A stretch of DNA of 64,000 nt. It comes from Flavobacteriales bacterium. Lineage in GTDB: Bacteria; Bacteroidota; Bacteroidia; Flavobacteriales; UBA7312. The stretch lies in assembly GCA_029248105.1 (NCBI GenBank), contig JAQWJZ010000003.1, positions 27,350 to 91,349 of the forward strand, in the 5' to 3' direction. Shown one piece after another: positions 19,345 through 58,732 of the stretch (the stretch's first letter is position 1; every line of letters starts with the position of its first letter). The notes under the pieces were generated by a model. It was not told the DNA's origin. It searched no databases and saw only the letters and a program-made list of their open reading frames with translations. Position numbers and translations under genes: made by a program.

Positions 19345-21834
19345 TTATCTTACTAGTGTAATTGTTCCTGTACAATTTTCACAATTGGTGTGATCGTAAA
19401 TACGATACTCAAAATCTTGATAGCTTAATACATAGGAATAGGTTCCAGTAATTAGAGGATTACCTGTTCTCATATTCGTTCCATCCCATGCCATATCAGG
19501 ATCGTTTGATTGAAATACCATTGAGCCATATCTATCAAAGATAGCTATTGAAAACGTTTCTGTTCTCATAGCATGATGAAAGACTTTAAAGGTGTCGTTA
19601 TTTCCATCTAAGTCTGGTGTAAAACCATTAGGAACAAATAAAGTGTGTTCTTCTTTTATGGCAAGGGTGCCATATATACTGTCTTTACACATGAACTCAT
19701 CTGTAACGACTAATTTTAAGTCATAATATTTAATTCCAGAGCTGTCCAGATCAACGGATAAGTCTAAATTCAAGACATCCTGTGAGTTAGCCGTAAAGCC
19801 GTTACTCAATTCCCATTGCCATTCTACTACATTACCTTCTGAATTATCGTAAATATTGATAATAGGATAATTAGTTGTTACCGTATCATCAAGAACTCTA
19901 TAGTCTGCTATAACAAAAGGAGGTTGAGTAATTTCAAAAGTTAATTCGTTAAAACATTGATTAGCATCTTCTACCATAATTGTATAAAAGCCTTCAGACA
20001 AATCGTATATGTTCTGATCAGTAGAGTAAAAAGAATTTTCTCCTTTCCAAACAAATGAAATTGGTAAAAACTCTTCAGAATAAGGTGGGTTGTCTGGTCC
20101 TCCCCAAGAAGAAACCTCTATAAATCCATCGTTATTATAGGTGCAGCTTTTATGGTTGTAGTTTGCTATGTCCAGAGCTAGCGAGTCCGGTTGGGTAAGA
20201 TCGAATATAATATTATTCGGGCAGCCCTCAGCGTCTTCAACAGTAAATGAATAATTTCCTGATGGAAGATTGTATATATCGGCTTGTCTTGAAATCGTAT
20301 CATTATTTGCTAGGTCAATCCAATAGTAAGAATATGGAAGTAGACCTCCACTAGCCAAACAAGAAACCCAAGCATCGCTACCATCATAACATCTTACGTT
20401 AAAACCATTGTAGTCAGAAACAGTACTGCTTAATGATATCGATGAGTTTTCAGTTAATAAGTATGCTGCAGAATCTTCACAATTATTGTTGTCTGTTACA
20501 TTTATCTGATAGTTTCCCGAAGCTAGGTTATTTATTGTTGTGGTTCCATTGCCAGTAATTGGATTGTCTCCACTCCAACTGTAATTGTATGGTGGTGTTC
20601 CACCGCTAACAGTAGTGCTTATAATACCATCGCTAAATCCAAAGCAACTAACAGGATCAATCGATTCGAATATTTCGATATCTTGAGGAGGCGTTGAGAT
20701 AGTGTAAGGGCCTGACGTATAATTGCAACCCAGGTTATCAGTAATCGTTAAGTTGTAAATATCAGCTTCAAGGTTAAATATATCCTCACTGTCAGAACTG
20801 TAATTGTTATTCACTGACGACCATTCGAAAGTAAATGGAGGTGAACCGTTTGAAGTATTGATTTCAATAGCTCCAAATATTTCGCCAGGGCAAATGTTAT
20901 CATCTATCACAGCATCAACGATTACTGGTGTAGAAACAAATACGGTGACTTCATCTGTATAAACGTCTGGGCATTCCGATGCTGTTACGGTGTATGTTGT
21001 TGTCGTAACAGGAGCAACAGTAATATCTGTTCCTAAACCAATAACAGTACCTGTTTCATCTTCCCAAACAACATTATTGTTATTAGCACCATCAGGAACA
21101 AATCGGAAGGCTTGATTATTTCCTGTCATTTGAGTGTTATTCCAACCATTTTCGATTAAAAATTGACTCTCATCTTCGTTGACAATTCCCAATACTGATT
21201 CGCCATTATTCCAATTGGCACACAAAGGTTGATCTTGAATGTGAATTTCAATAACGTTTGTGGTTTCATAAATCTTTATTTGCCCGTTGAACTGAAATCC
21301 TGCACAATTGAAATATCCAAAATCTTCAAAAGAGGCTACGAATCTTCTAAATGGTGCAACACCATATACATTGTAAAACAGTCCGCCACCATTATTTGGG
21401 TTTAAATCCATCCATGGACCTAAAATTGCATTAATGACTTGTCCTGGAGGTAATGCACTTGGAATAGTATAGGTGTTCCAAGCAGAGTATGCATTTGCAT
21501 TGGTCAAGTCGAATGTTAAATAATTATTAGTTGAAATTAAAAGTTGATCGTAGATATTACCATAGAAACAAAAATTGAAGCCTATGTCAATAACTCCAGA
21601 ATGTACATCATCACCAAGTCCATTAAGATTAGTCCCCGAATTGAGAGGGTCCATGTCTAATGGTATGTTTTCAATAGTGTAATCGCTTGTTCCGATTGAG
21701 TTTGGTGTGTAATCAGCAGACAAGTCAACATCTTGAAGGTCGCATATGATAACATCTGCGCCAGCATCAATCTGTGCTTTTGCTTGATTGCTATATATTA
21801 ATACTAATGTAATTATAAGGGTTAAGTATCTCAT
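19345..21834 (-). CDS. Large secreted adhesin-like protein with SprB-type repeats and a T9SS type-B (gliding-motility-associated) C-terminal domain
   Basis: 829 aa. Signal peptide; repeats with GGTPPYNYSW / GSPPFTFEWS. C-terminus FVPNGFTPDLDGNNDTF...WDGT...GTYSYVL...GTITLVR matches the type-B CTD pattern. Confidence 0.85.
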   Translation of the reverse strand: MRYLTLIITLVLIYSNQAKAQIDAGADVIICDLQDVDLSADYTPNSIGTSDYTIENIPLDMDPLNSGTNLNGLGDDVHSGVIDIGFNFCFYGNIYDQLLISTNNYLTFDLTNANAYSAWNTYTIPSALPPGQVINAILGPWMDLNPNNGGGLFYNVYGVAPFRRFVASFEDFGYFNCAGFQFNGQIKIYETTNVIEIHIQDQPLCANWNNGESVLGIVNEDESQFLIENGWNNTQMTGNNQAFRFVPDGANNNNVVWEDETGTVIGLGTDITVAPVTTTTYTVTASECPDVYTDEVTVFVSTPVIVDAVIDDNICPGEIFGAIEINTSNGSPPFTFEWSSVNNNYSSDSEDIFNLEADIYNLTITDNLGCNYTSGPYTISTPPQDIEIFESIDPVSCFGFSDGIISTTVSGGTPPYNYSWSGDNPITGNGTTTINNLASGNYQINVTDNNNCEDSAAYLLTENSSISLSSTVSDYNGFNVRCYDGSDAWVSCLASGGLLPYSYYWIDLANNDTISRQADIYNLPSGNYSFTVEDAEGCPNNIIFDLTQPDSLALDIANYNHKSCTYNNDGFIEVSSWGGPDNPPYSEEFLPISFVWKGENSFYSTDQNIYDLSEGFYTIMVEDANQCFNELTFEITQPPFVIADYRVLDDTVTTNYPIINIYDNSEGNVVEWQWELSNGFTANSQDVLNLDLSVDLDSSGIKYYDLKLVVTDEFMCKDSIYGTLAIKEEHTLFVPNGFTPDLDGNNDTFKVFHHAMRTETFSIAIFDRYGSMVFQSNDPDMAWDGTNMRTGNPLITGTYSYVLSYQDFEYRIYDHTNCENCTGTITLVR

Positions 21835-21948: not shown

Positions 21949-24429
21949 TTACCTCGTAATCGTGATGGTTCCAAAACAATTACTACAGTTTGCTCGATCA
22001 TAAATCTGATACTCAAAATCTTGATAACTTAAAATGTAGAAAAAGCTCCTACAGGTAGGGCTCTTGAAGAAAAGCTAGTTCCGTCCCATTCAAAGTCAGG
22101 GCTTGAAGACGTATAAATCATAGAGTCCCAACGGTCATAAATAGCTATTTTGAATGAGCCTTCTAAGATGCCGTGATGCTCAATCTTGAATATATCGTTC
22201 TTTCCGTCAAAGTTTGGTGAAAATCCATTTGGAATAAATAGGGTGTGCTCATCTTTTATTGAAAGTTGGCCATAGGTGCTATCAGTACAGCCAAATTCAT
22301 CAACCACAACAAGTTTTAAATCGTAGTAAATAATACCCAGAGAGTCTAAATCAATATTCGAAAAATCTATTCCATAAATATTCTCTTCGGTCGAAGTTAA
22401 CCCATTACTTAACTCCCAATACCACTCAACAATATTGCCTTCAGAGTCATCAAAAAGATTCATGATAGGATTGTTTTTTGTAACTGGATTGTTTTTAGTT
22501 CTGTATTTTGATTTGACCTCCGGTGGTTGTTGTATTTCAACCGATAGCTCCTCTATGCAATTATTAGCATCTGTAACTATCACTGTGTATATGCCTTCGG
22601 ATAAATTATTGATGTTCTGGTTATTTGAGTGAAAAAATGATTCATGTTTTTTCCACTGAAATGATTTTGGCAAATACAATTCAGACCCTACAGGATGATT
22701 TGGACCACCAACAGTAGATGTTTTTATAAATCCATCGTTATTGTAGGTGCAACTTTTGTGTTTAATGTCAGAGACTTCAATCCTCAATGCCTCAGGCTCC
22801 GTAAATATAAAATCGGTGTTAAGTATACAATCTTTGGAGTCAATGACTTTTAGTAAATATTGACCAGATTTAAAATTTTTGTAATTAGAGTTTTGACTTA
22901 TGGTATCGTTAGATTCAGAATTAATCCAATAGTATTTGTATGGCGAGATCCCTCCTGTAACATTATTTGATACGGAAGCATTACCACCTTTGCATCTAAT
23001 ATTGTATCCGTTGTAGTTAGAAATTTCACTAATCAATTCAATTATACTGTTTTCTGGAACATAGAAAGTTGAAGAAATTTCACAGCCATTATTATCGGTT
23101 AAATTTAGTTGATAATTACCAATACTAAGCTCACTGATTGTATTTCCATTTTCTGTGAATCCATTTTCGCTTACCCAATTGTATTGGTAAGGAGGAGTTC
23201 CGCCACTTACTAAAACTTCGATTAAGCCATCACTAAATCCACTACATCTAGCTCCAATGATACTATCTTGTATAACTAAATCAGGGGGGGGTAGGAGATA
23301 TAATAAACGATTGATTTATTTCACAATCCATACTATCGGTTATAGTTAAGTTATATGTATCTGCGATTAAATTGTTAATGTTTTTTGATGTTGATGTGAA
23401 AGTATTGCTATTATTTGACCATAAATAAGTAAAGGGATGAGTTCCGCCCGTATGCTTTATGTCAATTGCGCCATATATCTCATCGGGACACATATTATCA
23501 TCTATTGTAGGGTTAATGTCAATTGTTGATGAAACAAAAATAGTTACTTCATCTGAATAAGAATCTGGGCATTCAGATACACTAATGGTATATGTAGTTG
23601 TTGTGTCTGGGTTAACTAACATAGTTGCACCATAACCTATGAAGCCTCCTTGATTGTCATACCATTCAATACTATTTTCTCCATCGTTTGGTGTGAACCT
23701 AAAAGCTTGGTTATCTCCTGTCATTGTAGTATTGTTCCAACCATTTTCTATTAGAAACTGCGTTTCATCTTCGTTTATTATACCCAGAACAGATTCCCCA
23801 TTATTCCACGAATCACAAAGAGGTTGATCTTGTATGTGTATTTCAATATTGTTGGTAGATTCAAATAGTTTTATTTGACCATTAAATTGCATATTCGAAC
23901 AAGAAAAGTATCCAAAATCGTTGAACGATACTATGAATCGTCTGAATGGTGCTTTTCCTTCAATGCTATGGCTTATGTTGCCACCATTAGAAGGGTTAAG
24001 GTCTATCCATGGGCCTAAGATGGCATTGACTACCTGGCCTATTGAAGATATACTTGGAATAGGATAGGTGTTCCATGGAGAATAAGCGTTTACATTTTCT
24101 ATGTCAAAAGAAAGGTAATTATTTGTTGAAGCGACTAACTGATTATACACATTGCCATAAAAGCAAAAGTTAAATCCAATATTAATTATGTCTGTATGAG
24201 AATCATCAGATAATAGATTTATAACAACGGGATTAGTCAATGTTTCCATTTCAATGGAAATAGGTTCAATAGTGTAGTCTGATGTTGAAACGGAATTAGG
24301 GGTGTATTCAATGGATAAATTCACATCTTGTGGTTCACAGATTACTATGTCTGGTCCAGCATCAATTTGAGCATAGATGGAGAAAGTTTGAAAAAAAATA
24401 AAGAGGAATATTGATATAAATTGTCGCAT
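21949..24429 (-). pseudogene. Paralogue of the adjacent T9SS type-B cargo gene, split by two single-base homopolymer frameshifts (track ORFs 23281-24429 and 22029-23036 are fragments)
   Basis: Both fragments align colinearly to the 829-aa neighbour. Deleting 1 C from the C8 run (23284-23291) joins 24429..22029 into one frame. Adding 1 T to the T5 run (plus-strand A5, 22040-22044) extends it to ...FFYILSYQDFEYQIYDRANCSNCFGTITITR with TAA at 21951-21949. Confidence 0.85.
23284..23291 (-). repeat. Poly-C(8) tract (G8 on plus strand) at the frameshift point
   Basis: Coding strand reads TCT CCT ACC CCC CCC TGA. This is the longest G/C homopolymer I found in the window; the next longest is G6 at 38473-38478. 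Confidence 0.95.
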
Positions 24430-24543
24430 TTAAAAGTAAGTTTGGCTCTAAACAAAATTACATTTTTATTTTCAAAACGTAAAATTTGATTTTTTTAGAA
24501 TTTATTTAAATAAAATTAAGGGGTTGAATTCTATTTTTATAAT

Positions 24544-24551
24544 TAATTTTG
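24544..24551 (+). promoter_or_regulatory. Bacteroidetes-type -7 box (TAATTTTG) for mdh
   Basis: TAnnTTTG match 15 nt upstream of ATG 24567, with TTG at 24524-24526. The track's TTG start (24549) lies inside this box. Confidence 0.4.
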
Positions 24552-25529: not shown

Positions 25530-25556
25530 AAAAGAGAGCGATTGCTCTCTTTTTTA
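25530..25556. terminator. Bidirectional rho-independent terminator
   Basis: GAGAGC gatt GCTCTC stem flanked by A- and T-runs, between convergent mdh and the FG-GAP gene. Confidence 0.7.
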
Positions 25557-27737
25557 TTTTTTGATAATTTTTTTCCACTCTGATAACTTATCTTGTTGAA
25601 TATGAACAAAATAAGAGCTTGTTGGCAGGTGTCCAAGGCTGATGGATGAGGGCTGATATATTTTTTCTTTTTGAACTAAACGCCCCAATACGGAGTAAAT
25701 GGATAAAATAGTTTCTTTATCAGTGTCAATATTTATATAATCGTTGAATGGATTAGGAAAAATATCAACTGCAGATTTGTAAATGTTGTTCTTGATGCCA
25801 GTTCCAACACTATCATTTTTAAAGTAAAATAACCCACCTGTCTCCATTCCTAAAAATAAGTCTCTTTTATTGTCAGCTGTAAAATCTTCAAAAAGAACAG
25901 CTGTATTTTTACCGTCATTTATCCATTGAAAATTATTTGAAATGAGTTCAAAATTGGAAGAAAGGTTGTTGTTAACACTTTGGTAATGGTAAATTAGTCC
26001 GCTTTCACTACCAATAAGAATATTGATTTCATTGTCTTTCTCAAAAACATAGGGAGTGCTAAACCCATACAAGCTCTCGTCGTTATTAACTGATATTCCG
26101 CCAAAGTCATCAATTAATGAGTTAAATATTGGACTATAGGGTGTTCCAGTATTTTCAGCATAACTTAATGTGCCATCTACTTGACCAATAATTAAGTCAA
26201 ATAGATTGTCATTATTCATGTCGTATAAAAAAGGGGTAGCATGTTGGCCTATATCTATGGAAAAGAAGCTAACGTTTTCAAGTTCAAATAATGCATCTTG
26301 TCCATCGTCTGCATTATTTTGAAAGTAGTGCAGTTTTCCGTTATTATCACCCAATATCATATCTACATCTCCATCGTTATCTAAATCTGCAAGGGTAGGG
26401 TAAAGTCCGTTAACTGTTTCGTTTAGAATTGTATCTAGTGCTATTGATGAAAGGCCACCATAATCTCTGTTAATCACTTCAAAGTTAGGTTCTGTTTGAC
26501 TTCCTATATTTCTTAATAACGCAAGCTGAGATGAAGGGTTGCTATTGTTGAAATATCCGTAATTACCAATGAGTAAGTCTTTTAATCCATCGTTATTATA
26601 GTCTATTACAGCAGGGTAAGCGCCTGACCCAAAGTCCAAGGTGTTGTCTTGCAGAAAATCTTTTTGACTGAATTCAAATGTTGGATTGTTATCTGCGCCA
26701 GTATTTAGGAATACCATGATGCTCTCAAAGTTTTCAGCGTTATTATTTATGTTAGGGCTAACAACTAAATCCCTGATATTATCATTATTAATGTCAAGGT
26801 AAAATGCAGCAGGAAATGAGTTTATTTCAGCACTAATATCACTTCCGTTTCCGATGGGAAAATCTTGATTTACAGAAACCATATTTGCACTTTGAGAATC
26901 ACCGCCGTTGGTTAACATATTTAAATTGTTAAACGATACATCACCCAGAATAAAATCCATGTCGTTATCGCCATCTATGTCAAGAGCAAGTGTTGATGAG
27001 CCGCTATGAGCTCCAGAAGATCGAATTTGAGGCTGATTAATTATAGCATCTTCTTCACAACTGTTGAAATCATAAGTGTTTAATCCTTCAAAAAATTCTC
27101 CCCAACAATCTGTCTTTAATTCAAAAACTAAGCTGTCGCAATTGCCATAAAGCTCTTGGCTTTGATTCTGATGATATTCAACATAACCACCACTTTGTTT
27201 GAACGTTAACACATCGACATCCCCATCTCCATCTACATCTACAAAAGAGGGGATATCTACTTCTGAAATTATTATAGCACTTAGTATAGGGCCTAAATCG
27301 CTTATTAAGGCAGTCGTTTCGATTTGAAAATTTATATTTTCTCCTTGTGAAGTGTTTTTGTAGACTTTAACGTAACTGTCGTTGTAGGTAAAGATATCTT
27401 CTTTTCCATCGCAGTTGTAATCAATTAATAAAGCCCATTTCTTTAGCTCAGGAAAATCATGGCTATATTCTACAGAATAGTCAAAATCTGTTCCTACCCC
27501 GTCATTAGCATTCAAAAAACATAATACTCTATCACCGATTCTTTCAAATACAAAAATATCTTTTTTGCCATCGTTATTGAGGTCTATATTAGATAGTTGA
27601 CATGAATTGAGTCCGCCTGTAAGGGGATTTTTTATTAGGCTTCCGTTTTCAATAATTGAAATGTCTGATCTATTGAGGAACTGACTAAATAGCGCCAATG
27701 GAGCTATAAGAAGAAATAGAATAAGGGCATTTTTCAT
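25554..27737 (-). CDS. FG-GAP/VCBS-repeat protein with a T9SS type-A C-terminal sorting domain
   Basis: 727 aa. Signal peptide; repeated D-x-D/N-x-D-G-x-x-D calcium-type FG-GAP motifs (DLNNDGKKDIF, DVDGDGDVDVL, DLDNDGDVDMI). C-terminus is DIFPNPFNDYINI...YFVHIQ...KKIIKK. Confidence 0.8.
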   Translation of the reverse strand: MKNALILFLLIAPLALFSQFLNRSDISIIENGSLIKNPLTGGLNSCQLSNIDLNNDGKKDIFVFERIGDRVLCFLNANDGVGTDFDYSVEYSHDFPELKKWALLIDYNCDGKEDIFTYNDSYVKVYKNTSQGENINFQIETTALISDLGPILSAIIISEVDIPSFVDVDGDGDVDVLTFKQSGGYVEYHQNQSQELYGNCDSLVFELKTDCWGEFFEGLNTYDFNSCEEDAIINQPQIRSSGAHSGSSTLALDIDGDNDMDFILGDVSFNNLNMLTNGGDSQSANMVSVNQDFPIGNGSDISAEINSFPAAFYLDINNDNIRDLVVSPNINNNAENFESIMVFLNTGADNNPTFEFSQKDFLQDNTLDFGSGAYPAVIDYNNDGLKDLLIGNYGYFNNSNPSSQLALLRNIGSQTEPNFEVINRDYGGLSSIALDTILNETVNGLYPTLADLDNDGDVDMILGDNNGKLHYFQNNADDGQDALFELENVSFFSIDIGQHATPFLYDMNNDNLFDLIIGQVDGTLSYAENTGTPYSPIFNSLIDDFGGISVNNDESLYGFSTPYVFEKDNEINILIGSESGLIYHYQSVNNNLSSNFELISNNFQWINDGKNTAVLFEDFTADNKRDLFLGMETGGLFYFKNDSVGTGIKNNIYKSAVDIFPNPFNDYINIDTDKETILSIYSVLGRLVQKEKIYQPSSISLGHLPTSSYFVHIQQDKLSEWKKIIKK

Positions 27738-27888: not shown

Positions 27889-30849
27889 ATGCAAAATAAA
27901 AGTTTTATCTCTCTGTTCGCATTAGTGTTTGCAATTGTTTGTCTATACCAATTGTCTTTCACATGGATAGCTCAAGGAGTTGAGAAGGATGCAGTAGAGT
28001 ATTCGAATGGAGATGAGTTTAAAGAAAAAGCTTATTTAGATTCCATTTCATCGGAGCCTATCTACAATATCGGAGTTAAAAACTACACTTATAACGAGTG
28101 TAAATCAAGAGAAATAAATCTTGGTTTGGACCTTAAAGGTGGTATGAATGTTACTCTTGAAGTATCTGTTGTGGATGTGATAAGAGCAATGTCTAATTAA
28201 AACAAAGATGAAGCGTTTAATTCGGCTATTAACTTGGCAGTGAATAAACAGCTAGATAGTCAGGATGACTTTGTTACTCTATTCGCTCAATCTTTTACTG
28301 AGTTAAACCCAGAGGGAAAGCTTGCCTCAATTTTTTATACACCTGAACTAAAAGATAAAATAAACTCTACTTCGACAAACGATGAAGTAATGGGAGTGAT
28401 TCGTACTGAAGTTGAAGATGCGATTGACCGTTCATTTAATATTTTGAGATCTAGGATAGATAGATTTGGTGTTTCTCAACCAAACATTCAGCGTTTAGAA
28501 GGCTCAGGAAGAATTTTAGTTGAATTACCAGGTGTTAAAGATCCAGAAAGAGTTCGTAAACTTCTACAAGGAACAGCACAATTAGAGTTTTGGGAAACGT
28601 ATGAAAATGCTGAGATTTTAGGTGCGATTGATCAAATTAATACATTTCTTAAATCTCAAGTTGAATTAGAAGATACAATTGCTGATTCTGAGGAAATTGT
28701 TGAAAACACTGAAGTTGAAGAAGATTTTAATTCAGATTTATCTATTGATGAGTTAAGCACAAACTCAGAAGCTTCTTCTGATACTGCAGCTATGACTGCT
28801 GAACAATTTTCAAGAGAAAACCCATTATATGCCGTTTTATTTCCTAATCTGAATCAATCCAACCAACCTAACGAAGGTCCTGTTTGTGGAATATCTTCTG
28901 TAAAAGATACTGCTGCGGTCAATGCTTTTTTAAAGATGGACGAGGTTAAGAATATATTACCTAGAGATGTGCGTTTTTCTTGGACTGTAAAGCCATACGA
29001 TCCCGAAGGAAAGTTTGTTCAGTTAGTTGCTTTAAGAGTTACTTCAAGAGATGGTAAAGCGGCTATGGAAGGAGATGTCGTTACTGATGCTCGTACCGAC
29101 TTTGGTCAGTTTAACGGCTCACCTGAGGTGTCTATGGCAATGAATGCTGAAGGTGCAAGAATGTGGAAAAGATTAACAGCTGACAACATAGGTAAAAGTG
29201 TTGCTATTGTTTTAGATGATTATGTGTATTCATTTCCGACAGTTCAATCAGAAATTTCTGGTGGAAGATCCCAGATAACAGGTAACTTTACCATCAACGA
29301 AGCAAATGACTTATCTAATATCTTGAAGTCAGGTAAATTACCCGCACCTGCAAGAATCATTGAAGAAGCAATTGTTGGACCATCATTAGGTCAAGAGGCT
29401 ATTGATTCAGGCTTGAGATCATTCATTATAGCCTTGTCAATTGTATTGTTGTACATGATGTTCTATTACAGTTTTGCTGGTTTAGTATCAAATATTGCCC
29501 TTTTGGCAAACCTTTTCTTTGTGTTTGGTGTTTTATCCTCATTAGGTGCTGTACTTACGCTTCCTGGTATTGCAGGTATTGTATTAACAATTGGTATGTC
29601 AGTAGATGCAAACGTTCTTATTTATGAAAGAATACGTGAAGAGCTAATGAACGGCAAAGGGCTAAAGCTAGCTGTTTCAGATGGTTACAAAAATGCTTAC
29701 AGTTCAATTATTGATGCCAACGTGACCACTCTATTGACAGGTATTGTTCTTTATATATTTGGAAGTGGACCTATTAAAGGATTTGCTACAACTCTTGTAA
29801 TAGGTATTTTGACATCTTTATTCTCAGCTATTTTCTTAACACGTCTAATATTCCACTGGAGATTAGAGAAAAAGGGTGTAGCATCTTTTGATAACTCAAT
29901 TACCAGAGGTGCATTCAAAAACACAGCTATTGATTTTATTGGTAAGCGTAAAATTTTCTATGGAATATCATCTCTTATTATTTTGATAGGAATAGGTTCT
30001 TTAGTAACCAAAAAACTAAATTATGGTGTAGACTTCAAAGGGGGTAGAACTTTCGTTGTTCGTTTTGATGAACCTGTTGATAACGAAGCGATTAGAAATT
30101 CACTAGCTAATTATTTTATCGACGACTCTGGTCTTAAAATGTATCCTGAAGTAAAAACCTTTGGGGATAATAATCAAGTGAAAATTACTACTAAATACCT
30201 TATTGATAGTAAAGAATTGAGCGCCGATGCTATTGTTAGTGGCAAGTTAGACGATGGATTGGTAAGTATTGGTGATTATGAGGTGATGAGTTCTCAAAAA
30301 GTAGGACCAACTATTGCAGATGATATTAAAGTATCAGCATTATGGTCTATAATGTTCTCATTACTTATAATTTTCTTATATATCCTATTGAGATTTAGAA
30401 AATGGCAATTTAGTTTAGGTGCTGTTGCAGCAGTATTCCACGATGTATTAATTGTCTTATCAATATTCTCTTTGTTTTATGGGGTATTACCATTCTCATT
30501 AGAGATTGATCAAGCGTTTATTGCAGCTCTTTTAACAATAATTGGTTATTCTCTTAATGATACTGTTGTTGTATTTGATAGAATTAGAGAACATATGAAT
30601 ATCTTTAAGAAAAAAGAATTCAATTCACTAGTGAATAATGCATTAAATAGTACATTAAGTAGAACAGTAAACACGTCGCTTACTACATTCTTTGTGTTAT
30701 TAGTAATATTCTTGTTTGGAGGTGAGGTAATTCGAGGATTTATGTTTGCATTAATGGTAGGTGTAATTGTTGGGACTTATTCTTCATTATTTGTCGCTTC
30801 ACCAATAATGGTCGATACGGTCAAAAAATCAGAAGAAGATAAAAAATAA
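27889..30849 (+). pseudogene. secDF: Protein translocase subunit SecDF (fused), interrupted by an in-frame TAA at 28198-28200
   Basis: Track ORFs 27889-28200 (TM1 and the start of the periplasmic domain, ...GLDLKGGMNV...) and 28234-30849 are in the same frame ((28234-28198)/3 = 12). Read-through text ...IRAMSN*NKDEAFNSAINLAVNKQ is colinear with the N-terminal layout I recall for fused SecDF. Confidence 0.8.
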
Positions 30850-40991: not shown

Positions 40992-42263
40992 ATGAACGAA
41001 ATTACTTCATTATATCTGGCAATTTAGTCATTTTGATATCACATCATTATTTACCTCTCTAAATCTGCCATTATCGATTTATTCTGTTGGCAAGCCTAAT
41101 CATGATGCTGGACCAGACTTTCTTAATGCTAGAGTAAATATTGATGGTTTAGATTGGCATGGCGATGTAGAGATACATGTTAACTCTTCTGATTGGTCCA
41201 AGCATAAGCATCAAAATGATAAAAGGTATAATTCTGTAATACTTCATGTCGTATGGCAAAACGATAAAGAAATCAGAAATAATAATGGAGATTGTATTCC
41301 ATGTTTAGAGCTCAAGCCTTTAGTCGATAACAAGCTGCTCAACTTTTATCAACAATTGATGCATAGTAAGAACTGGATTCTTTGTGAATCCTACATTACA
41401 CAAGTGGATGAATTCATTGTCAGTCAATTTTTCGAGAGGTTATTAATTGAACGATTAGAGGAAAAATCAAATGTGTTGTCAAAAAAATTGAGGAATTCTA
41501 AAAACAATTGGGAATGTATATTTTATCAATCCTTGTGTCAGTCAATTGGCTTAAAAATAAATGCTGAATCTATGCTTAGTTTATCCAACAGACTTCCGTT
41601 TAGTATTTTAGCCAAACACAGAAACAATTTATTTCAAATTGAGGCATTATTGTTCGGCGTAGCAGGTTTCCTAAACGATGTCGACGACAGCTATGGTCAA
41701 TCTCTCAAAAAAGAGTATTCTTTTTTAAAGCACAAGTATGATCTAAAAGAGATGGAGGTTGAACAATGGCTGTTTATGCGTTTACGCCCATCATCGTTTC
41801 CAACAGTTAGAATAGCGCAATTGGCAAAGCTCATTTTTAATAATGCTAATTTGTTTTCTAAAGTTGTTGAGGCCAAATCTATTGATAGATTAAAAAAATA
41901 TTTGAATCCTCTGTTAGTGACTATTGGTTAACTCATTATCATTTCAAGAAGAAATCTCACCATAGAAAAAAGTCGATAGGAATTAACCTTTTTCATAGTA
42001 TTGTTATCAATTCCGTTTGCTCTCTATTATTTGTTTATGCCAAAGAGAAAGGTAATATCGCTTTTCATGAAAAATCCATACAGTTTTTGCAGGAGGTAAA
42101 GGCTGAAAATAATAATGTTGTTAAGCGATTTAATGGTATGGGGTTAGTTGTTCGTAACGCAGCTCAATCTCAAGCACTAATACAACTTAAAAGAAAATAC
42201 TGTGAAGCTAAAAAATGTTTAAATTGCAACATCGGTAATTACTTGATTACAAAAAATGAATAG
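40992..42263 (+). pseudogene. DUF2851 family gene disrupted by two single-base frameshifts
   Basis: ATG 40992 gives MNE, then the frame shifts: LLHYIWQFSHFDI...HDAGPDFLNARV...WHGDVEIHVNSSDW... runs in the frame of track ORF 41356-41931. After the A7 run (41892-41898) homology continues in another frame (SVSDYWLTHYHF...CLNCNIGNYLITKNE*), stop at 42261-42263. Confidence 0.75.
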
Positions 42264-42474
42264 TTTGCTAAATTTTTTTGAGAAACAATTCTTCGGAGTT
42301 AGCGCATGGTGGGCAAGTAAGTTAGGCTTAAAGCCTTCTTTTGTCCGTTTGTTTTTTATATACTTATCCTTTGTAAATTTTGGAATTCCTTTGTTTTATC
42401 TCAGTATGGTCTTTATCTTAAGAGTAAGAAATCATTTTAAATATCGTAAACGACCTAGTGTTTTTGATTTGTGA
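42256..42474 (+). CDS. PspC-domain small membrane protein
   Basis: 72 aa. FFGVSAWWASKLGLKPSFVRLFFIYLSF matches the PspC domain pattern. ATG overlaps the DUF2851 end by 8 nt. Confidence 0.8.
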   Translation: MNSLLNFFEKQFFGVSAWWASKLGLKPSFVRLFFIYLSFVNFGIPLFYLSMVFILRVRNHFKYRKRPSVFDL

Positions 42475-50050: not shown

Positions 50051-50124
50051 GCCGCTATAGCTCAGTTGGCTAGAGCAGCTGATTTGTAATCAGCAGGTCG
50101 TGGGTTCGAGTCCCTCTAGCGGCT
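50051..50124 (+). tRNA. tRNA-Thr (anticodon TGT)
   Basis: Acceptor GCCGCTA/TAGCGGC, anticodon loop TTTGTAA, T-arm GGTTCGAGTCC. Confidence 0.95.
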
Positions 50125-50153
50125 CAGTTCTTAGTTTAAGAGCTAATTGTTAT

Positions 50154-50235
50154 GGGGAGATACTCAAGCGGTCAACGAGGACAGACTGTAAATCTGTTGG
50201 CTTCGCCTTCGTAGGTTCGAATCCTGCTCTCCCCA
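50154..50235 (+). tRNA. tRNA-Tyr (anticodon GTA)
   Basis: Acceptor GGGGAGA/TCTCCCC, anticodon loop CTGTAAA, long variable arm, T-arm GGTTCGAATCC. Confidence 0.95.
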
Positions 50236-50248
50236 CATTAACAAATTT

Positions 50249-50322
50249 GCGGGAGTAGCTCAGCTGGCCAGAGCATCAGCCTTCCAAGCTGAGGGTCGCG
50301 GGTTCGAATCCCGTCTCCCGCT
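50249..50322 (+). tRNA. tRNA-Gly (anticodon TCC)
   Basis: Acceptor GCGGGAG/CTCCCGC, anticodon loop CTTCCAA, T-arm GGTTCGAATCC. Confidence 0.95.
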
Positions 50323-50332
50323 CTTAACCTAA

Positions 50333-50404
50333 GCCGATGTAGCTCAGGGGTAGAGCGTTTCCTTGGTAAGGAAGAGGTCACGGGTTCAATTCCCGTCATT
50401 GGCT
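50333..50404 (+). tRNA. tRNA-Thr (anticodon GGT)
   Basis: Acceptor GCCGATG/CATTGGC (one G-T wobble), anticodon loop TTGGTAA, T-arm GGTTCAATTCC. Confidence 0.93.
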
Positions 50405-50472
50405 CAATAGAAATAAAAAAACAGCCTTTCTTTATAGGAGGACTAACTTTAATTAATTAAAAATAGCTAGCT

Positions 50473-51660
50473 ATGGCAAAAGAGAATTTTAATCGTACCA
50501 AACCACACTTAAACATTGGTACAATCGGTCATGTTGACCACGGTAAAACTACCTTGACTGCCGCTATTACTAAGGTATTGGCGGACGCTGGATTGTGTGA
50601 AGCTCAAGCGTTTGACTCTATCGATAACGCTCCAGAAGAAAAAGAAAGAGGTATAACTATTAACACTGCTCACGTAGAGTATGAAACTGCTAATCGTCAT
50701 TACGCTCACGTTGACTGTCCAGGTCACGCCGATTACGTAAAAAACATGGTTACTGGTGCTGCTCAGATGGATGGTGCAATCTTAGTTTGTGCGGCCACTG
50801 ATGGTCCAATGCCTCAAACGAGAGAGCATATCTTATTAGCTCGTCAGGTAGGTGTTCCTGCTGTCGTTGTATTCCTTAATAAAGTGGATATGGTTGACGA
50901 TGAGGAACTTTTAGAATTAGTAGAGATGGAAGTGAGAGAATTACTTTCTTTCTATGAGTATGATGGTGACAATGCTCCAGTTGTTGCAGGTTCTGCTTTG
51001 GGTGCACTTAACGGTGAAGCTCAGTGGGTTGATTCTGTAATGAAATTAATGGAAGCTGTTGACGCTCACATTCCAGAGCCAGTTCGTGATAATGCTAAAG
51101 ACTTCTTGATGCCTATCGAGGATGTATTTACTATTACTGGACGTGGTACTGTTGCTACAGGTCGTATCGAAACAGGTGTTGCAAACACAGGTGATTCGGT
51201 TGATATCATCGGTATGGGTGCTGAGAAATTAGGATCTACAGTAACTGGTGTTGAGATGTTCCGTAAAATCTTAGATAGAGGTGAAGCGGGTGACAACGTA
51301 GGTATCTTACTTCGTGGTATTGAGAAATCTGATATCAAAAGAGGTATGGTAATCTGCAAACCAGGTTCTGTAACACCTCACACTAAATTTAAGGCTGAGG
51401 TTTATATCTTGAAAAAAGAAGAAGGTGGTCGTCATACACCATTCCATAACAAGTACCGTCCACAGTTCTATTTAAGAACGACTGACGTAACTGGAGAAAT
51501 TCAGTTGCCAGAAGGTACTGAAATGGTAATGCCAGGTGACAACCTAACAATTACAGTTGAATTAATCAATAAAGTAGCGATGAGCCAAGGTCTTCGTTTT
51601 GCAATCCGTGAGGGTGGTAGAACTGTAGGTGCTGGTCAGATTACTGAGATTATCAGCTAG
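50473..51660 (+). CDS. tuf: Elongation factor Tu
   Basis: 395 aa. [22 protein letters not shown]-motifs. Ends with TAG at the conserved C-terminus. Confidence 0.99.
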
Positions 51661-51687
51661 TAATAATTTTTACTAACAGCATTCAAG

Positions 51688-51712
51688 GGAAAGGTCTAAA
51701 TTAGACCTTTCC
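51688..51712 (+). terminator. Hairpin after tuf (terminator/processing structure)
   Basis: Perfect 11-bp stem GGAAAGGTCTA aat TAGACCTTTCC, nested in an outer AACAGCA/TGCTGTT pairing. Only a short T-run follows, before tRNA-Trp. Confidence 0.5.
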
Positions 51713-51724
51713 TATTGCTGTTTT

Positions 51725-51797
51725 ACGGGTGTAGCTCAATTGGTAGAGTAGTGGTCTCCAAAACCATTGGTTGGGAGTTCGAGTCTCTCCACCCGTG
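51725..51797 (+). tRNA. tRNA-Trp (anticodon CCA)
   Basis: Acceptor ACGGGTG/CACCCGT, anticodon loop CTCCAAA, T-arm GGTTCGAGTCT... wait-free reading: T-arm segment GAGTTCGAGTCTC. Confidence 0.93.
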
Positions 51798-51815
51798 CAA
51801 TAAATATTAAATGAA

Positions 51816-52007
51816 ATGGCAAAATTTGTCGAATACATAAAAGAATCAGCTGACGACTTAATGAATAAAGTCTCTTGGCCTACATGGAAAGAGCTACAAA
51901 GTAGCTCAATTGTAGTTGCAATTGCTTCATTAATCATTGCACTAATAGTTTATGTTATGGATTTAAGTTTCCGTAATATTCTAGAAGTGTTATATGACTT
52001 ATTTTAA
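51816..52007 (+). CDS. secE: Preprotein translocase subunit SecE
   Basis: 63 aa. Single C-terminal TM helix, conserved KVSWPT motif. Position between tRNA-Trp and nusG. Confidence 0.9.
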   Translation: MAKFVEYIKESADDLMNKVSWPTWKELQSSSIVVAIASLIIALIVYVMDLSFRNILEVLYDLF

Positions 52008-52015
52008 AAATTGAC

Positions 52016-52558
52016 ATGGCAGATAAACACTGGTACGTAGTAAGAGCAATAGGCGGACAAGAAAAAAAAGTTTGCACATATATTGAAAACGAAATCTCAA
52101 GATTAAATCTCTCTGATTTTGTTTCTCAAATTCTTGTGCCTACTGAAAAAGTTTTTCAAATAAGAAATGGTAAAAAAGTCAGTAAAGAAAGAAATTTCTT
52201 TCCTGGATATATTCTTGTTGAAGCCAATCTTGTCGGTGAAGTTCCTCACATCATCAAATCTGTACCTGGTGTCATAGGTTTTCTTGGTGCTACCAAAGGC
52301 GGTGAGCCTGTACCAATGAGAACATCTGAAGTGAATAGAATACTTGGTAAAGTTGATGAGTTGGCTATCACTGACGAAGAAATAGTGATACCTTACGTAG
52401 TGGGTGAGTCAGTGAAAGTAATTGACGGACCATTTAACTCTTTCAGTGGTTTCATTGAAGAGATAGATGAACAAAAGAAAAAATTAAAAGTTACAGTAAA
52501 AATATTTGGTCGTAAAACTCCTGTTGAATTGAGTTTTATGCAAGTTGAAAAAGAATAA
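52016..52558 (+). CDS. nusG: Transcription termination/antitermination factor NusG
   Basis: 180 aa. WYVVRAIGGQEKKV NGN domain and a C-terminal KOW (GESVKVIDGPF). Confidence 0.97.
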   Translation: MADKHWYVVRAIGGQEKKVCTYIENEISRLNLSDFVSQILVPTEKVFQIRNGKKVSKERNFFPGYILVEANLVGEVPHIIKSVPGVIGFLGATKGGEPVPMRTSEVNRILGKVDELAITDEEIVIPYVVGESVKVIDGPFNSFSGFIEEIDEQKKKLKVTVKIFGRKTPVELSFMQVEKE

Positions 52559-52641
52559 ATATTTAAACAACCGATTTTATTTTGTTGAAACATTAATGCT
52601 TCCAACTTTCAATAGAATAATATCTTAAACAAACTTAAGTA

Positions 52642-53088
52642 ATGGCTAAAGAAGTAAGTAAAATAGTAAAATTACAGGTTAGAGGGGGCGCAGCTAATCC
52701 TTCACCACCAGTAGGTCCTGCACTAGGTGCCGCTGGGGTAAACATCATGGAGTTCTGTAAGCAGTTTAATGCTAGAACTCAAGAAAAGCAAGGGAAAATT
52801 GTTCCTGTTGTTATCACTGTTTTTGCTGACAAATCTTTTGAATTTGTTATCAAAACTGCACCGGCAGCAGTACAATTGTTGGAAGCATCTAAAAAGAAAA
52901 AAGGTTCTGGTGAACCTAATAGAACTAAAGTAGGTTCTGTAAGCTGGGATCAAATCAAAACCATAGCTGAGGATAAAATGGCAGATTTAAATGCCTTTTC
53001 AGTAGATTCAGCTATGATGATGATAGCTGGTACAGCAAGAAGTATGGGTTTAACAGTTAAAGGTGGTACTGCACCACAAAAAAAATAA
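52642..53088 (+). CDS. rplK: 50S ribosomal protein L11
   Basis: 148 aa. [20 protein letters not shown]. Confidence 0.98.
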
Positions 53089-53092
53089 GGAT

Positions 53093-53782
53093 ATGGCTAG
53101 AGTTAGTAAAAATACGAAAGAAGCTTCAGCTCTTATAGATAAGGCTACTGCTTACACTCTTACTGATGCAGCTGGTTTAATGAAATCTATTTCTAAAACT
53201 AAGTTTGATGCATCTGTAGATATCGCTGTAAAATTGGGTGTTGACCCTAAACAAGCTAATCAGATGGTCAGAGGTGTTGTTACACTTCCACATGGTACAG
53301 GAAAAGATGTAAAAGTCTTAGCTCTGGTATCTGCTGACAAAGAAGCTGAAGCTAAAGAAGCTGGCGCTGATTTTGTTGGTCTTGAAGATTACATTGAAAA
53401 ATTAAAAGGTGGTTGGACTGATGTCGACGTTATTATAACAATGCCTTCGGTAATGGGTAAATTGGGTGCTCTAGGTCGTGTTTTAGGACCAAGAGGTTTA
53501 ATGCCTAACCCTAAGACTGGAACTGTTACTATGGAAATAGGCAAAGCGGTTTCTGATGTTAAAAAAGGTAAAATCGATTTCAAAGTTGATAAATTTGGTA
53601 TCATCCACTGTGCAATTGGTAAAGCCTCATTCGATTCGTCAAAATTAGTTGACAACGCTAATGAGTTATTACAAACTATTTTGAAACTTAAACCATCGTC
53701 CTCAAAAGGCACATACATGCAAAGCGTATACATGTCATCGACGATGAGCCCAAGTATTCGAATTGATGAAAAATCTATCTAA
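53093..53782 (+). CDS. rplA: 50S ribosomal protein L1
   Basis: 229 aa from ATG 53093 (the track start at 53063 overlaps rplK). Motifs [28 protein letters not shown]. Confidence 0.97.
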
Positions 53783-53796
53783 ATCAGTTATTAGTT

Positions 53797-54318: not shown

Positions 54319-54398
54319 TAATCTTAGTGATTACGCACCACTAATTTTTTAATGCTTCCACATTAAATAAAATGTATAACAATTAAACTAAATTAAAC

Positions 54399-54776: not shown

Positions 54777-54797
54777 GTTTACATTACCATCCTTAAT

Positions 54798-54845
54798 GGT
54801 TTAGGCTTTAAACACCCGTTTAAAGCTTAAACCCTTTTGTGTTTA
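54798..54845 (+). terminator. rplL-rpoB intergenic hairpin (attenuator candidate)
   Basis: 16-bp stem (54798-54813 / 54818-54833, one G-T wobble), 4-nt loop ACCC, followed by CTTTTGTGTTT. Confidence 0.6.
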
Positions 54846-54882
54846 CAAACGATTTATTTTTTTAACAAAAACATATACCAAG

Positions 54883-58698: not shown

Positions 58699-58732
58699 TA
58701 TTTATAATCTTAATACTCTATAATAAATAGAT

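What the first reader, a model, noticed from the sequence alone, without database searches (positions are those of the whole stretch)
23284..23291. C8 homopolymer splits a T9SS adhesin paralogue: candidate slipped-strand ON/OFF switch, or a homopolymer miscall
On the coding (minus) strand the N-terminal fragment ends ...TCT CCT ACC CCC CCC TGA. I translated 23283..23037 after removing one C. It reads ...TPPDLVIQDSIIGARCSGFSDGLIEVLVSGGTPPYQYNWVSENGF...ELISEISNYNG with no stop. It runs in frame into ORF 22029-23036 and is colinear with the intact neighbour (ISTPPQDIEIFESIDPVSCFGFSDGIISTTVSGGTPPYNYSW). The intact paralogue encodes the same T-P-P as ACG CCT CCT, so the tract is specific to this copy. 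It is the longest G/C run I found in an AT-rich window. Poly-G/C tracts inside surface-protein genes are the classic contingency-locus design, and I am not aware of it being described for T9SS type-B cargo.
Basis: partly seen in the sequence, partly recalled or inferred. Interest (0 to 1): 0.7.

Follow-up and report, generated by a model that had tools for sequence, protein, structure and literature searches.

The report
Poly-C frameshift in decaying adhesin gene
A run of eight C's really does break one of two tandem surface-protein genes in this marine flavobacterial genome, and the run varies (6, 7 or 8 C's) among wild relatives. This copy also carries a second break that slippage cannot repair, and the gene is decaying in most relatives, so it is a slippage-prone pseudogene and not a demonstrated on/off switch.

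Summary
A C8 run (window 23284-23291, minus strand) splits a SprB-repeat protein gene with a T9SS type-B C-terminal domain (CTD) into 382-aa and 335-aa ORFs. Removing one C restores the frame. A second lesion, a deleted G at about 22039, cuts off the last ~30 residues of the CTD.

It is not a miscall. Two independent metagenome assemblies carry C8 on the same local haplotype, and one other assembly shares the second lesion. The window differs from its closest relative by only 2 indels in 19.4 kb.

Across about 25 fetched orthologous contigs (98-100% identical) the tract is C7 (intact 826-aa gene), C8, C6, or interrupted (CCCCTCC, CCTCCCC). At least three independent slips occurred, one inside a 99.97%-identical clone, so the tract is a real slippage hot spot.

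Twelve of 15 loss-of-function events lie elsewhere (8 nonsense, 4 other indels). The tract is absent from the paralogue and from other species. One G8 in 64 kb is not beyond chance.

Best reading: a young, accidental poly-C hot spot in a dispensable paralogue that is being lost repeatedly. This copy is a dead pseudogene. A population-level switch is not excluded (about 0.2).

The parts
23284..23291 (-). C8 homopolymer (G8 on + strand). This is a +1 slippage allele of a tract that is C7 in intact orthologues.
   Evidence: sequence; the only gap against the 98.9-100%-related C7 contigs is this extra C.
23281..24429 (-). N-terminal fragment ORF (382 aa, NCBI MDG1916249.1). It has a signal-peptide-like N-terminus (MRQFISIFLFIFFQTFSIYA/Q), a conserved N-terminal region and the first SprB-like repeat. 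It ends at a TGA created by the frameshift (ACC CCC CCC TGA).
   Evidence: Pfam SprB repeat hit is weak (23.3 bits).
22029..23283 (-). Continuation of the gene in the +1 frame. It is annotated only from the TTG at 23036 as a 335-aa protein (MDG1916248.1). It contains SprB-like repeats and a truncated T9SS type-B CTD.
   Evidence: open frame. TIGR04131 matches profile positions 3-61 of 85. PF13585 CHU_C.
22038..22044 (-). Second lesion. Intact orthologues read GCTTATTCGTAC; the window reads GCTTTTTC-TAC. The G is deleted between 22039 and 22038, and there is an A>T change at 22042. This is a -1 frameshift at about codon 797. It is not homopolymer slippage.
   Evidence: The same derived TTTTTC-TAC is present in L092.
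21949..22038 (-). Stranded out-of-frame tail of the type-B CTD (YILSYQDFEYQIYDRANCSNCFGTITITR*).
   Evidence: It is colinear with the C-terminus of the neighbour and of the intact orthologue P0130.
19345..21834 (-). Intact tandem paralogue (829 aa, MDG1916247.1). It has SprB repeats and a full type-B CTD. T-P-P is encoded as ACG CCT CCT, so there is no tract.
   Evidence: It is intact with 0 indels and 0 stops in 12 full-length and 6 partial population copies.
24430..24548 (-). Upstream intergenic region shared with the divergent mdh gene. It contains TAATTTTG (fits the Bacteroidetes -7 motif TAnnTTTG, from my own knowledge) about 25-31 nt before the ATG. It also contains a poly-A run (about 24490) that is A7 here and A8 in L089/L106 and L091.
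   Evidence: Promoter function is inferred, not tested.

Best explanation
The C8 run is a real, inherited +1 slipped-strand insertion in a young poly-C tract (in-frame state C7 = ACC CCC CCT, Thr-Pro-Pro). The tract lies in a Pro-rich linker of one of two tandem genes for SprB-repeat proteins with a T9SS type-B CTD, in an uncultured marine Flavobacteriales population. G/C homopolymers of this length slip during replication, so the tract is a local mutational hot spot: relatives carry C6, C7 and C8. The gene itself appears dispensable, or its loss is favoured. Most haplotypes in the population carry independent, irreversible inactivating lesions. The window's copy has acquired a second frameshift (deleted G) that removes the last ~30 residues of the T9SS sorting domain. 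In this genome the locus is therefore a two-hit pseudogene. The 382-aa N-terminal product would lack a CTD, the C-terminal ORF lacks a signal peptide, and slipping back to C7 would give a 799-aa protein with a truncated CTD. Shown here: the tract, both lesions, their presence in independent assemblies, the tract-length polymorphism, and the many other lesions. Inferred: replication slippage as the mechanism, dispensability of the gene, and loss of secretion with a truncated CTD.
For: (1) Anatomy: searches show two frameshifts, and the doubly repaired product is 826 aa and colinear with the 829-aa neighbour. (2) An intact 826-aa orthologue with C7 (P0130) is found on 11 contigs from different samples. 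(3) C8 is real. L089/L106 and L090/L107 carry C8, and in the comparison of L089 and L090 with the window gene positions 717-1729 are identical except for one SNP, so C8 arose once and was inherited. The window differs from L106 by 84 substitutions but only 2 indels in 19.4 kb. (4) The second lesion is shared with L092. In the window the CTD matches only profile positions 3-61 of 85 of TIGR04131, against 3-74 in the intact orthologue, which continues for 21 further residues to its C-terminus. (5) Decay across the population: 15 independent loss-of-function events. Eight are nonsense codons (111, 202, 286, 238, 440, 492, 562, 663). Seven are frameshift indels, of which three are at the tract. 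The adjacent paralogue has none in 18 copies. (6) The tract is young. It is absent from the paralogue (ACG CCT CCT) and from another species (L001: CCA CCA CCA), and no G/C run of 6 or more occurs in L001-L003. It is interrupted as CCCCTCC or CCTCCCC in two haplotype groups. (7) There is no excess of such tracts: one G8 in 64 kb against 0.13 expected, and 12 of 100 shuffles reach it.
Against: Three OFF alleles (L089/L090 with C8; L105 with C6) have no other lesion, so they could in principle revert. L105 differs from the intact clone by 2 substitutions and the tract in 9.15 kb, which shows recent, recurrent slippage of the kind a contingency locus would show. The intact allele is widespread (11 contigs). 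Diversity statistics do not show clearly weaker constraint than in the neighbour: piN/piS is 0.43 against 0.41, and pN/pS from segregating sites is 0.55 against 0.30. The window is a metagenome-assembled genome (MAG). Its haplotype is mosaic, and the two lesions are 1.25 kb apart, so their linkage in a single cell rests on the assembly.
Confidence: 0.7

Rival explanations
1. This is a genuine phase-variable contingency locus at population level. The poly-C tract toggles the type-B cargo protein ON (C7) and OFF (C6/C8) by reversible slippage, perhaps under phage or grazer pressure on a surface adhesin. The window's copy is a dead-end derivative that was locked OFF and then decayed.
For: Tract-length alleles C6, C7 and C8 occur among genomes at least 98.3% identical across this gene, with three independent slips. 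One of them lies in a clone 99.97% identical over 9.15 kb. OFF alleles L089/L090/L105 are otherwise intact. The tract meets the poly-G/C cut-off of 7 or more used to call candidate phase-variable genes (PMC6321876). The T8 run at gene position 32 is invariant while the C7 run changed three times. T9SS adhesins SprB and RemA are thought to be phage receptors in F. johnsoniae, and readily reversible homopolymer frameshifts were noted in F. psychrophilum phage-resistance work (PMC9804748).
Against: Twelve of 15 inactivating events are irreversible and lie outside the tract. Two of the three haplotype groups with a slipped tract also carry such lesions in at least one member: the window in the C8 group, and all of group D. 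The tract is not conserved in the paralogue or in other species and is interrupted in about 13 contigs. The ON length C7 is at the bottom of the range where switching is efficient; PMC6321876 itself notes that mutability at its cut-offs may be below 1e-5. C8 has stayed C8 while the surrounding haplotype recombined. No ON/OFF pair was found on the B or window haplotype. No second tract is present in 64 kb.
Confidence: 0.2
2. Homopolymer miscall or assembly error: the true sequence is C7 and the gene is intact.
For: The window is a MAG. It also contains a private premature stop in secDF and a split DUF2851 gene, which could hint at consensus errors.
Against: C8 occurs in two other assemblies made with different assemblers and samples, on the same local haplotype. 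The second lesion is also seen in L092. Only 2 indels separate the window from L106 over 19.4 kb, and only one of them is at a homopolymer (an intergenic A7/A8). Large genes such as the 1271-aa and 1433-aa ORFs at 54883-63034 are uninterrupted.
Confidence: 0.03
3. The frameshift is bypassed during expression. The C8 allele places CCC_UGA in the zero frame, and a +1 ribosomal slip of tRNA-Pro onto CCU would give exactly the wild-type T-P-P-D-L-V. RNA polymerase could alternatively slip on the C8 run. Either way the OFF allele would be leaky.
For: The sequence shows ACC CCC CCC TGA TTT. A +1 slip restores the frame with the native sequence (my reading). CCC_TGA is cited as a +1 frameshift-prone sequence giving more than 1% frameshifting in E. 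coli (PMC10861913).
Against: The site is not conserved; C8 occurs in only 3 of about 34 contigs. I saw no SD-like sequence just upstream on reading the sequence; no systematic search for stimulators was made. Even full bypass would yield a protein with a truncated CTD in this window. Efficiency in Bacteroidota is unknown.
Confidence: 0.04

Closest known systems
Poly-G/C contingency (phase-variable) loci of Campylobacter jejuni, Neisseria and Haemophilus (SSR-mediated translational phase variation)
   Same: There is an intragenic G/C homopolymer of 7 or more in a surface-protein gene. Tract length differs by plus or minus 1 among close relatives and even within a near-identical clone. The changes switch the reading frame (cut-offs in PMC6321876).
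   Different: The tract is not conserved beyond part of one species-level population. No phasome is evident. The ON state is only C7. Most inactivating lesions are irreversible and outside the tract. This copy has a second frameshift. Reversible high-frequency switching is untested. The organism is an uncultured marine Flavobacteriales, not a host-adapted pathogen.
Flavobacterium johnsoniae SprB/RemA-type motility adhesins (T9SS cargo; SprB with a type-B CTD)
   Same: It has SprB repeats (PF13573) and a C-terminal TIGR04131/PF13585 type-B sorting domain. The N-terminus looks like a signal peptide. It has a tandem paralogue.
   Different: It is much smaller (826 aa; SprB is several thousand residues, from my own knowledge). 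The conserved ~300-aa N-terminal region has no Pfam or PDB match. No gene with a PorP/SprF Pfam assignment is called in the fetched 9-19-kb loci around the pair; the flanking genes are gyrB on one side and mdh, an FG-GAP protein and secDF on the other. Adhesin or motility function is untested.
Readily reversible loss-of-function mutations in Flavobacterium psychrophilum under phage pressure (PMC9804748)
   Same: The setting is flavobacterial, and surface or T9SS-linked functions are lost by frameshift and nonsense mutations. Homopolymer indels (a poly-A run in a flippase gene) were noted there as readily reversible.
   Different: Those were laboratory-selected mutants, mainly in gld/spr machinery genes and not in type-B cargo. 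Here the variants are natural alleles from metagenomes, and the selective agent is unknown.
Ordinary multi-hit pseudogene of a duplicated gene
   Same: There are two disabling frameshifts in this copy. Many independent nonsense and frameshift alleles exist in relatives, while the sister paralogue stays intact.
   Different: One site, the poly-C tract, accounts for 3 of 15 events, and some tract alleles are the only lesion. Part of the variation is therefore potentially reversible.
Shifty-stop +1 frameshift sites (prfB CUU_UGA; CCC_UGA in E. coli)
   Same: The C8 allele creates CCC_UGA, and a +1 slip would restore the native protein sequence.
   Different: It is not conserved and no stimulator was noted, so it is a by-product of the insertion and not a programmed site.

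Membership tests
SSR-mediated phase-variable (contingency) locus | Homopolymeric G/C tract at or above the length known to be hypermutable (7 or more) inside the ORF or promoter | tested here: met
   C8 at 23284-23291 inside the ORF. The cut-off of 7 or more G/C comes from PMC6321876.
SSR-mediated phase-variable (contingency) locus | Tract length varies among closely related strains or within a clone | tested here: met
   C6, C7 and C8 occur among contigs at least 98.3% identical across this gene. L105 (C6) against L082 (C7) is 99.967% identical over 9153 bp, and the tract is the only gap.
SSR-mediated phase-variable (contingency) locus | Reversible, high-frequency ON/OFF switching within a clonal population | not testable with these tools
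   No reads or cultures are available. Exact-product look-ups found no C7 or C6 version of the B or window haplotype. C8 is identical by descent in three contigs.
SSR-mediated phase-variable (contingency) locus | The ORF is otherwise intact, so a tract-length change restores a functional product | tested here: not met
   In this window a second frameshift (deleted G at about 22039) truncates the CTD. The feature is met in L089/L090/L105.
SSR-mediated phase-variable (contingency) locus | The tract is conserved in orthologues and such tracts are enriched in the genome (a phasome) | tested here: not met
   The tract is absent from the paralogue and from L001-L003 and is interrupted in the F and E haplotype groups. 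One G8 in 64 kb compares with 0.13 expected, and 12 of 100 shuffles reach it. The whole genome was not available.
T9SS type-B cargo (TIGR04131 / PF13585 CTD protein) | C-terminal type-B sorting domain above the curated threshold | tested here: met
   TIGR04131 scores 40.2 bits (cut-off 35) in the window fragment but covers only profile positions 3-61 of 85. In the intact orthologue P0130 it scores 46.3 bits and covers 3-74. PF13585 scores 54.2 bits.
T9SS type-B cargo (TIGR04131 / PF13585 CTD protein) | N-terminal Sec signal peptide | tested here: inconclusive
   MRQFISIFLFIFFQTFSIYA/QIDAG looks like a signal peptide by inspection. No predictor was run.
T9SS type-B cargo (TIGR04131 / PF13585 CTD protein) | Secretion by a T9SS present in the same genome, with a cognate PorP/SprF-like partner | not tested
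   No gene with a PorP/SprF Pfam assignment is called in the fetched loci around the pair. The window's other ORFs were not systematically scanned for gld/spr/por genes, and the rest of the genome was not available.
SprB-repeat protein (PF13573) | SprB repeats above the Pfam gathering score | tested here: inconclusive
   The window fragments score 23.3 and 16.2 bits against a cut-off of 28. The neighbour scores 57.6 bits, and the two proteins are colinear at 55.6% identity.
Pseudogene (decaying duplicate) | Disabling lesions relative to intact orthologues, with multiple independent hits | tested here: met
   There are two frameshifts here, and 15 independent loss-of-function events across the population against 0 in the neighbour.
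Pseudogene (decaying duplicate) | Relaxed purifying selection (dN/dS approaching 1) | tested here: inconclusive
   pN/pS is 0.55 against 0.30 for the neighbour. piN/piS is 0.43 against 0.41, with 0.05-0.11 for mdh and the FG-GAP gene. Counts are small.
Programmed +1 ribosomal frameshift site | Shift site conserved across orthologues, with the frameshifted arrangement as the norm | tested here: not met
   CCC_TGA exists only in the three C8 contigs. All other alleles are in frame or differently broken.

The most novel reading that the evidence does not exclude
The poly-C tract could be a nascent contingency locus in a free-living marine flavobacterium. On this reading, natural populations hold ON (C7) and OFF (C6, C8) versions of a T9SS type-B, SprB-like surface protein, including within one near-clonal lineage. 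Slippage would then provide reversible escape from a phage or grazer that uses the protein. OFF-C8 alleles might additionally be leaky through +1 frameshifting at the CCC_UGA they create. I found no paper combining phase variation, homopolymeric tracts and type IX secretion. This would therefore be the first SSR-type phase variation reported for T9SS cargo, and an example of how contingency loci are born from a synonymous change in a Pro-Pro linker.
Probability: 0.2. Interest if true: 0.6.

Novelty: new member of a known kind. Interest (0 to 1): 0.35.

Why it matters
For genome annotation, the two adjacent 'proteins' MDG1916249.1 and MDG1916248.1 are fragments of one two-hit pseudogene whose intact form is 826 aa. 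For biology, the locus is a small natural experiment. A synonymous-looking change made a C7 run in a Pro-rich linker of a surface protein, and that run then slipped at least three times in wild populations, while the rest of the gene was independently knocked out at least a dozen times and its tandem sister stayed untouched. That pattern points to recurrent loss of one surface-protein paralogue in a planktonic flavobacterium, whether loss is tolerated or favoured. It also illustrates how a contingency-like hot spot can arise by accident. If switching were shown to be reversible and selected, it would extend SSR phase variation to T9SS cargo and to free-living marine Bacteroidota. As it stands, the case is instructive but ordinary.

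Tried and rejected
(1) Assembly miscall: rejected.

(2) The second lesion as T6-to-T5 slippage, which was my first guess: rejected. Alignment to intact orthologues shows a deleted G plus an A>T change (TCGTAC to TC-TAC).

(3) A '313-bp deletion' and extra stops in L091: rejected as an artefact of a scaffold gap of N's.

(4) Invertible-promoter phase variation of the Bacteroides type: only weak inverted repeats (74-88% complementary, 15-25 nt, 0.8-2.6 kb apart) are present, and no gene with a recombinase Pfam assignment is called in the fetched 9-19-kb loci around the pair. The sigma-70 promoter scan is no better than shuffles, and no terminator was found.

(5) Balancing selection inflating diversity: synonymous diversity in the gene (0.019) is like that of mdh (0.017) and the FG-GAP gene (0.026), so there is no local peak.

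(6) GTDB representative genomes: the best hit is only 58% identical, so the species is not represented there. The JGI metagenome pattern scan gave only one extra contig, with the interrupted allele.

(7) PDB sequence search for the protein: no hits.

(8) Literature search for phase variation, homopolymeric tracts and type IX secretion together: 0 papers.

(9) Look-up of the DUF2851 fragment to test whether its lesions recur: not on record.

(10) The gyrB row is unusable because the partial gene was out of frame.

Contig counts per allele come from exact-protein look-ups and are not allele frequencies.
Full report
**1.
On the minus strand the sequence reads ...ATA TCT CCT ACC CCC CCC TGA TTT AGT... 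The run is exactly eight C's at window 23284-23291. It is the only G/C run of 7 or more in the 64-kb window (34.9% GC); the next is a G6 at 38474. The upstream ORF 23281-24429(-) encodes 382 aa ending SPTPP*. The +1 frame is open from the tract down to 22029, and deleting one C joins the two into ...ISPTPPDLVIQDSIIGARCSGFSDG....

The 'second lesion' is also real. The frame stops at ...LPVGAFSTF* (22029), while the last 29 codons of the sorting domain (YILSYQDFEYQIYDRANCSNCFGTITITR*) lie out of frame at 21949-22038. Repairing both lesions gives an 826-aa protein that is colinear from residue 1 to 826 with the tandem neighbour 19345-21834(-) (829 aa, 55.6% identity).

As a bare sequence feature the tract is not beyond chance. 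One G8 compares with 0.13 expected, and 12 of 100 dinucleotide-preserving shuffles have at least one. For G7 there are 2 matches against 1.02 expected.

**2. What the gene is.**
- NCBIfam TIGR04131 (T9SS type-B sorting domain) and Pfam PF13585 (CHU_C) hit the C-terminal fragment and the neighbour.
- SprB repeats (PF13573) are strong in the neighbour and weak in this copy.
- In the window fragment the CTD matches only profile positions 3-61 of 85. In the intact orthologue it matches 3-74, with 21 further residues to the C-terminus. The second lesion therefore removes the end of the secretion signal.
- The N-terminus (MRQFISIFLFIFFQTFSIYA/Q) looks like a signal peptide by inspection.
- No solved structure matches by sequence. 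'Adhesin' is inference from the SprB-type architecture.
- The window is a metagenome-assembled genome (MAG) labelled 'Flavobacteriales bacterium'. The fragments are deposited as two proteins, MDG1916249.1 and MDG1916248.1, and the neighbour as MDG1916247.1, on a 108,904-bp contig.
- No GTDB representative genome carries a close orthologue; the best is 58%.

**3. Relatives from elsewhere.**
The protein search found one cluster at 90% identity or more with 53 members. Fetching the encoding contigs gave about 25 orthologous loci from independent marine metagenome assemblies. They come from ENA, Logan, JGI, NCBI and Tara and are 98.3-100% identical to each other in this gene. All share the same neighbours: secDF, an FG-GAP protein with a type-A CTD, mdh, this gene, the 829-aa paralogue and gyrB.

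Aligned, the tract has five states:

| Haplotype group | Contigs | Tract | Other lesions |
|---|---|---|---|
| A | L082-L088 (11 contigs in all) | CCCCCCC, in frame | None; 826-aa gene fully intact |
| A, C6 variant | L105 | C6 | None |
| B | window, L089/L106, L090/L107 | C8 | None in L089/L090; deleted G in the window |
| C | L081 | CCCCCCC, in frame | Nonsense at codon 492 |
| D | L091-L093 | C6 | Nonsense at codon 663; L091 and L092 also at 238 |
| E | L103 | CCTCCCC | Nonsense at codon 440 and loss of one T from a T6 run at gene position 1792 |
| F | L094-L102, L104 | CCCCTCC, in frame | Nonsense at codons 202 and 286 and a 4-bp deletion at gene position 2434 |

**4. Not a miscall.**
C8 occurs in two other assemblies made from other samples with other assemblers (SPAdes NODE_1975, ERZ841010; MEGAHIT k119_70187, ERZ27286448). 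Between gene positions 717 and 1729 the window, L089 and L090 are identical except for one SNP. They share derived bases (889A, 1112T, 1317T, 1729A), so C8 arose once and was inherited. Outside that block the window is mosaic: it is F-like at 663-676 and D/F-like from 1874. C8 has therefore persisted through recombination.

The window's second lesion (GCTTATTCGTAC to GCTTTTTC-TAC: a deleted G plus an A>T change, not homopolymer slippage) is also present in L092. Over 19.4 kb the window differs from L106 by 84 substitutions and only two indels, this deleted G and an intergenic A7/A8. The assembly is therefore not prone to homopolymer errors.

**5. The tract is a real slippage hot spot.**
I built the products expected if the intact A haplotype carried C6, C8 or C9 and looked them up by exact sequence. 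The C6 products exist (P0151, 383 aa ending SPTPLI; P0150, the 362-aa C-fragment). Their contig L105 (ERR514702, 108,192 bp) is 99.967% identical to L082 over 9,153 bp. The only gap is C6 against C7.

There were therefore at least three independent slips: C7 to C8 in B, C7 to C6 in D, and C7 to C6 within the A clone. By contrast the T8 run at gene position 32 never varies, and one T6 run changed once. The tract meets the operational cut-off for candidate phase-variable loci (poly-G/C of 7 or more; PMC6321876).

**6. The gene as a whole is decaying.**
Counting events by haplotype (after discarding an N-gap artefact in L091) gives:
- 8 independent nonsense mutations, at codons 111, 202, 286, 238, 440, 492, 562 and 663;
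- 7 frameshift indels: three at the tract, loss of one T from the T6 run at gene position 1792, the deleted G at 2391, a 2-bp deletion near 2382, and a 4-bp deletion at 2434.

Twelve of the 15 events are irreversible and lie outside the tract. Only one haplotype group is intact: 11 of roughly 34 contigs, an ascertainment-biased count.

The adjacent paralogue is 99.6-99.9% identical with no indel and no stop in 12 full-length and 6 partial copies. Constraint statistics are equivocal. pN/pS is 0.55 against 0.30, and piN/piS is 0.43 against 0.41, with 0.05-0.11 for mdh and the FG-GAP gene. Synonymous diversity shows no local peak.

The tract is evolutionarily young. The paralogue has ACG CCT CCT and another species has CCA CCA CCA. 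L001-L003 contain no G/C run of 6 or more. Family consensus at this site is a Pro-rich linker (ISPPP or ISTPP), a natural seed for an accidental poly-C run.

**7. Mechanism.**
Shown:
- C8 shifts the frame by +1 and creates a TGA.
- The N-terminal product lacks a CTD, and the downstream ORF lacks a signal peptide.
- A second frameshift truncates the CTD.

Inferred: the C8 and C6 alleles arose by replication slippage on the homopolymer. In this genome the locus is non-functional, and slipping back to C7 would only give a 799-aa protein with a truncated sorting signal. The repeated losses reflect dispensability or selection against one surface paralogue. SprB and RemA-type T9SS adhesins are thought to be phage receptors in F. 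johnsoniae, as cited in PMC9804748.

A side observation: the C8 allele puts CCC_UGA in frame, a sequence cited as +1 frameshift-prone at more than 1% in E. coli (PMC10861913). A +1 slip there would reproduce the native T-P-P-D-L-V. This is a by-product of the insertion and not a conserved recoding site.

**8. Comparison with known systems and verdict.**
The locus works like the poly-G/C contingency loci of Campylobacter or Neisseria at the level of mutation: tract, location, and plus or minus 1 variation among close relatives. It fails or cannot be tested on the features that make such loci switches.
- An otherwise intact ORF: not met in this window.
- Tract conservation and enrichment: not met.
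- Reversible high-frequency switching: untestable here.

I found no paper combining phase variation, homopolymeric tracts and type IX secretion. Slipped-strand switching of T9SS cargo would therefore be new if shown.

My verdict is as follows.
- The miscall alternative is refuted.
- The 'switch' reading is only partly supported.
- The best explanation (0.7) is a real slippage allele at a young hot spot in a paralogue undergoing recurrent loss, with this copy a two-hit pseudogene.
- A population-level contingency function remains possible (about 0.2).
- Interest is moderate to low (0.35).
- Novelty: new member of a known kind.

Noticed in passing
window 27889-30849 (+), stop codon at 28198-28200: secDF is interrupted by an in-frame TAA at codon 104. 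Five related contigs (L082, L083, L084, L105, L106) have TAC (Tyr) there and encode an intact 986-aa SecDF. The window instead shows a 103-aa ORF and an 871-aa ORF in the same frame. This is either a private nonsense mutation or a consensus error in an important export gene of this MAG.
   Followed up: partly
window about 40993-42470 (+): A DUF2851 gene appears broken. The 191-aa ORF 41356-41931 matches only profile positions 121-305 of 375. The C-terminal part continues in another frame after an A7 run (41892-41898). The likely ATG at 40993 is one base out of frame with the conserved N-terminus (..KLLHYIWQF). This looks like a second multi-hit pseudogene in the window. The exact-product look-up found nothing, so recurrence in relatives is untested.
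   Followed up: partly
window about 24484-24490 (intergenic, upstream of the frameshifted gene): A poly-A run about 60 nt upstream of the gene's ATG is length-polymorphic. It is A7 in the window, the intact A clone, L081 and L105, and A8 in L089/L106 and L091. It lies in the shared mdh/adhesin promoter region. Any effect on expression is unknown.
   Followed up: partly
L092, gene positions about 2375-2391 (orthologue of window about 22039-22055): L092 carries the same deleted G and A>T lesion as the window plus a further 2-bp deletion a few bases upstream. The net change is -3, which restores the frame locally. The gene is dead anyway (C6 tract and nonsense codons). This shows that the lesion-bearing 3' segment circulates by recombination.
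   Followed up: partly
L082-L088 and L105 (orthologous loci): The intact haplotype is 100% identical over 2,481 bp (one SNP in L084) in contigs from many unrelated samples (ERZ6864728, ERZ27279326, ERZ922742, ERZ23498640, ERR9287635, ERR2598800, ERR12944114). This suggests a widespread, recently expanded clone. Other haplotypes differ from it by about 1-1.7% and are mosaic, indicating frequent recombination.
   Followed up: partly
window 25554-27737 (-): A 727-aa FG-GAP/VCBS-repeat protein with a T9SS type-A CTD (TIGR04183, PF18962) lies two genes upstream of the type-B pair. This short stretch therefore encodes three predicted T9SS cargo proteins, and no gene with a PorP/SprF Pfam assignment is called in the fetched loci around the pair.
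   Followed up: no
window 50051-63034 (+): This looks like a conserved translation/transcription gene block: tRNA-Thr, Tyr, Gly, Thr, then a 395-aa ORF (probably tuf), tRNA-Trp, ribosomal proteins L11 and L1 (Pfam-confirmed), and uninterrupted 1271-aa and 1433-aa ORFs (probably rpoB and rpoC). It is ordinary, but it serves as an internal control that long genes in the window are not riddled with frameshifts.
   Followed up: partly
P0020 and P0036: Two family members (827 aa at 52% and 829 aa at 49% identity to the query) are both listed with a longest contig of 57,981 bp. This hints that the tandem pair is old and that both copies are kept intact in another species. If so, decay of one copy would be specific to the window's lineage.
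   Followed up: no
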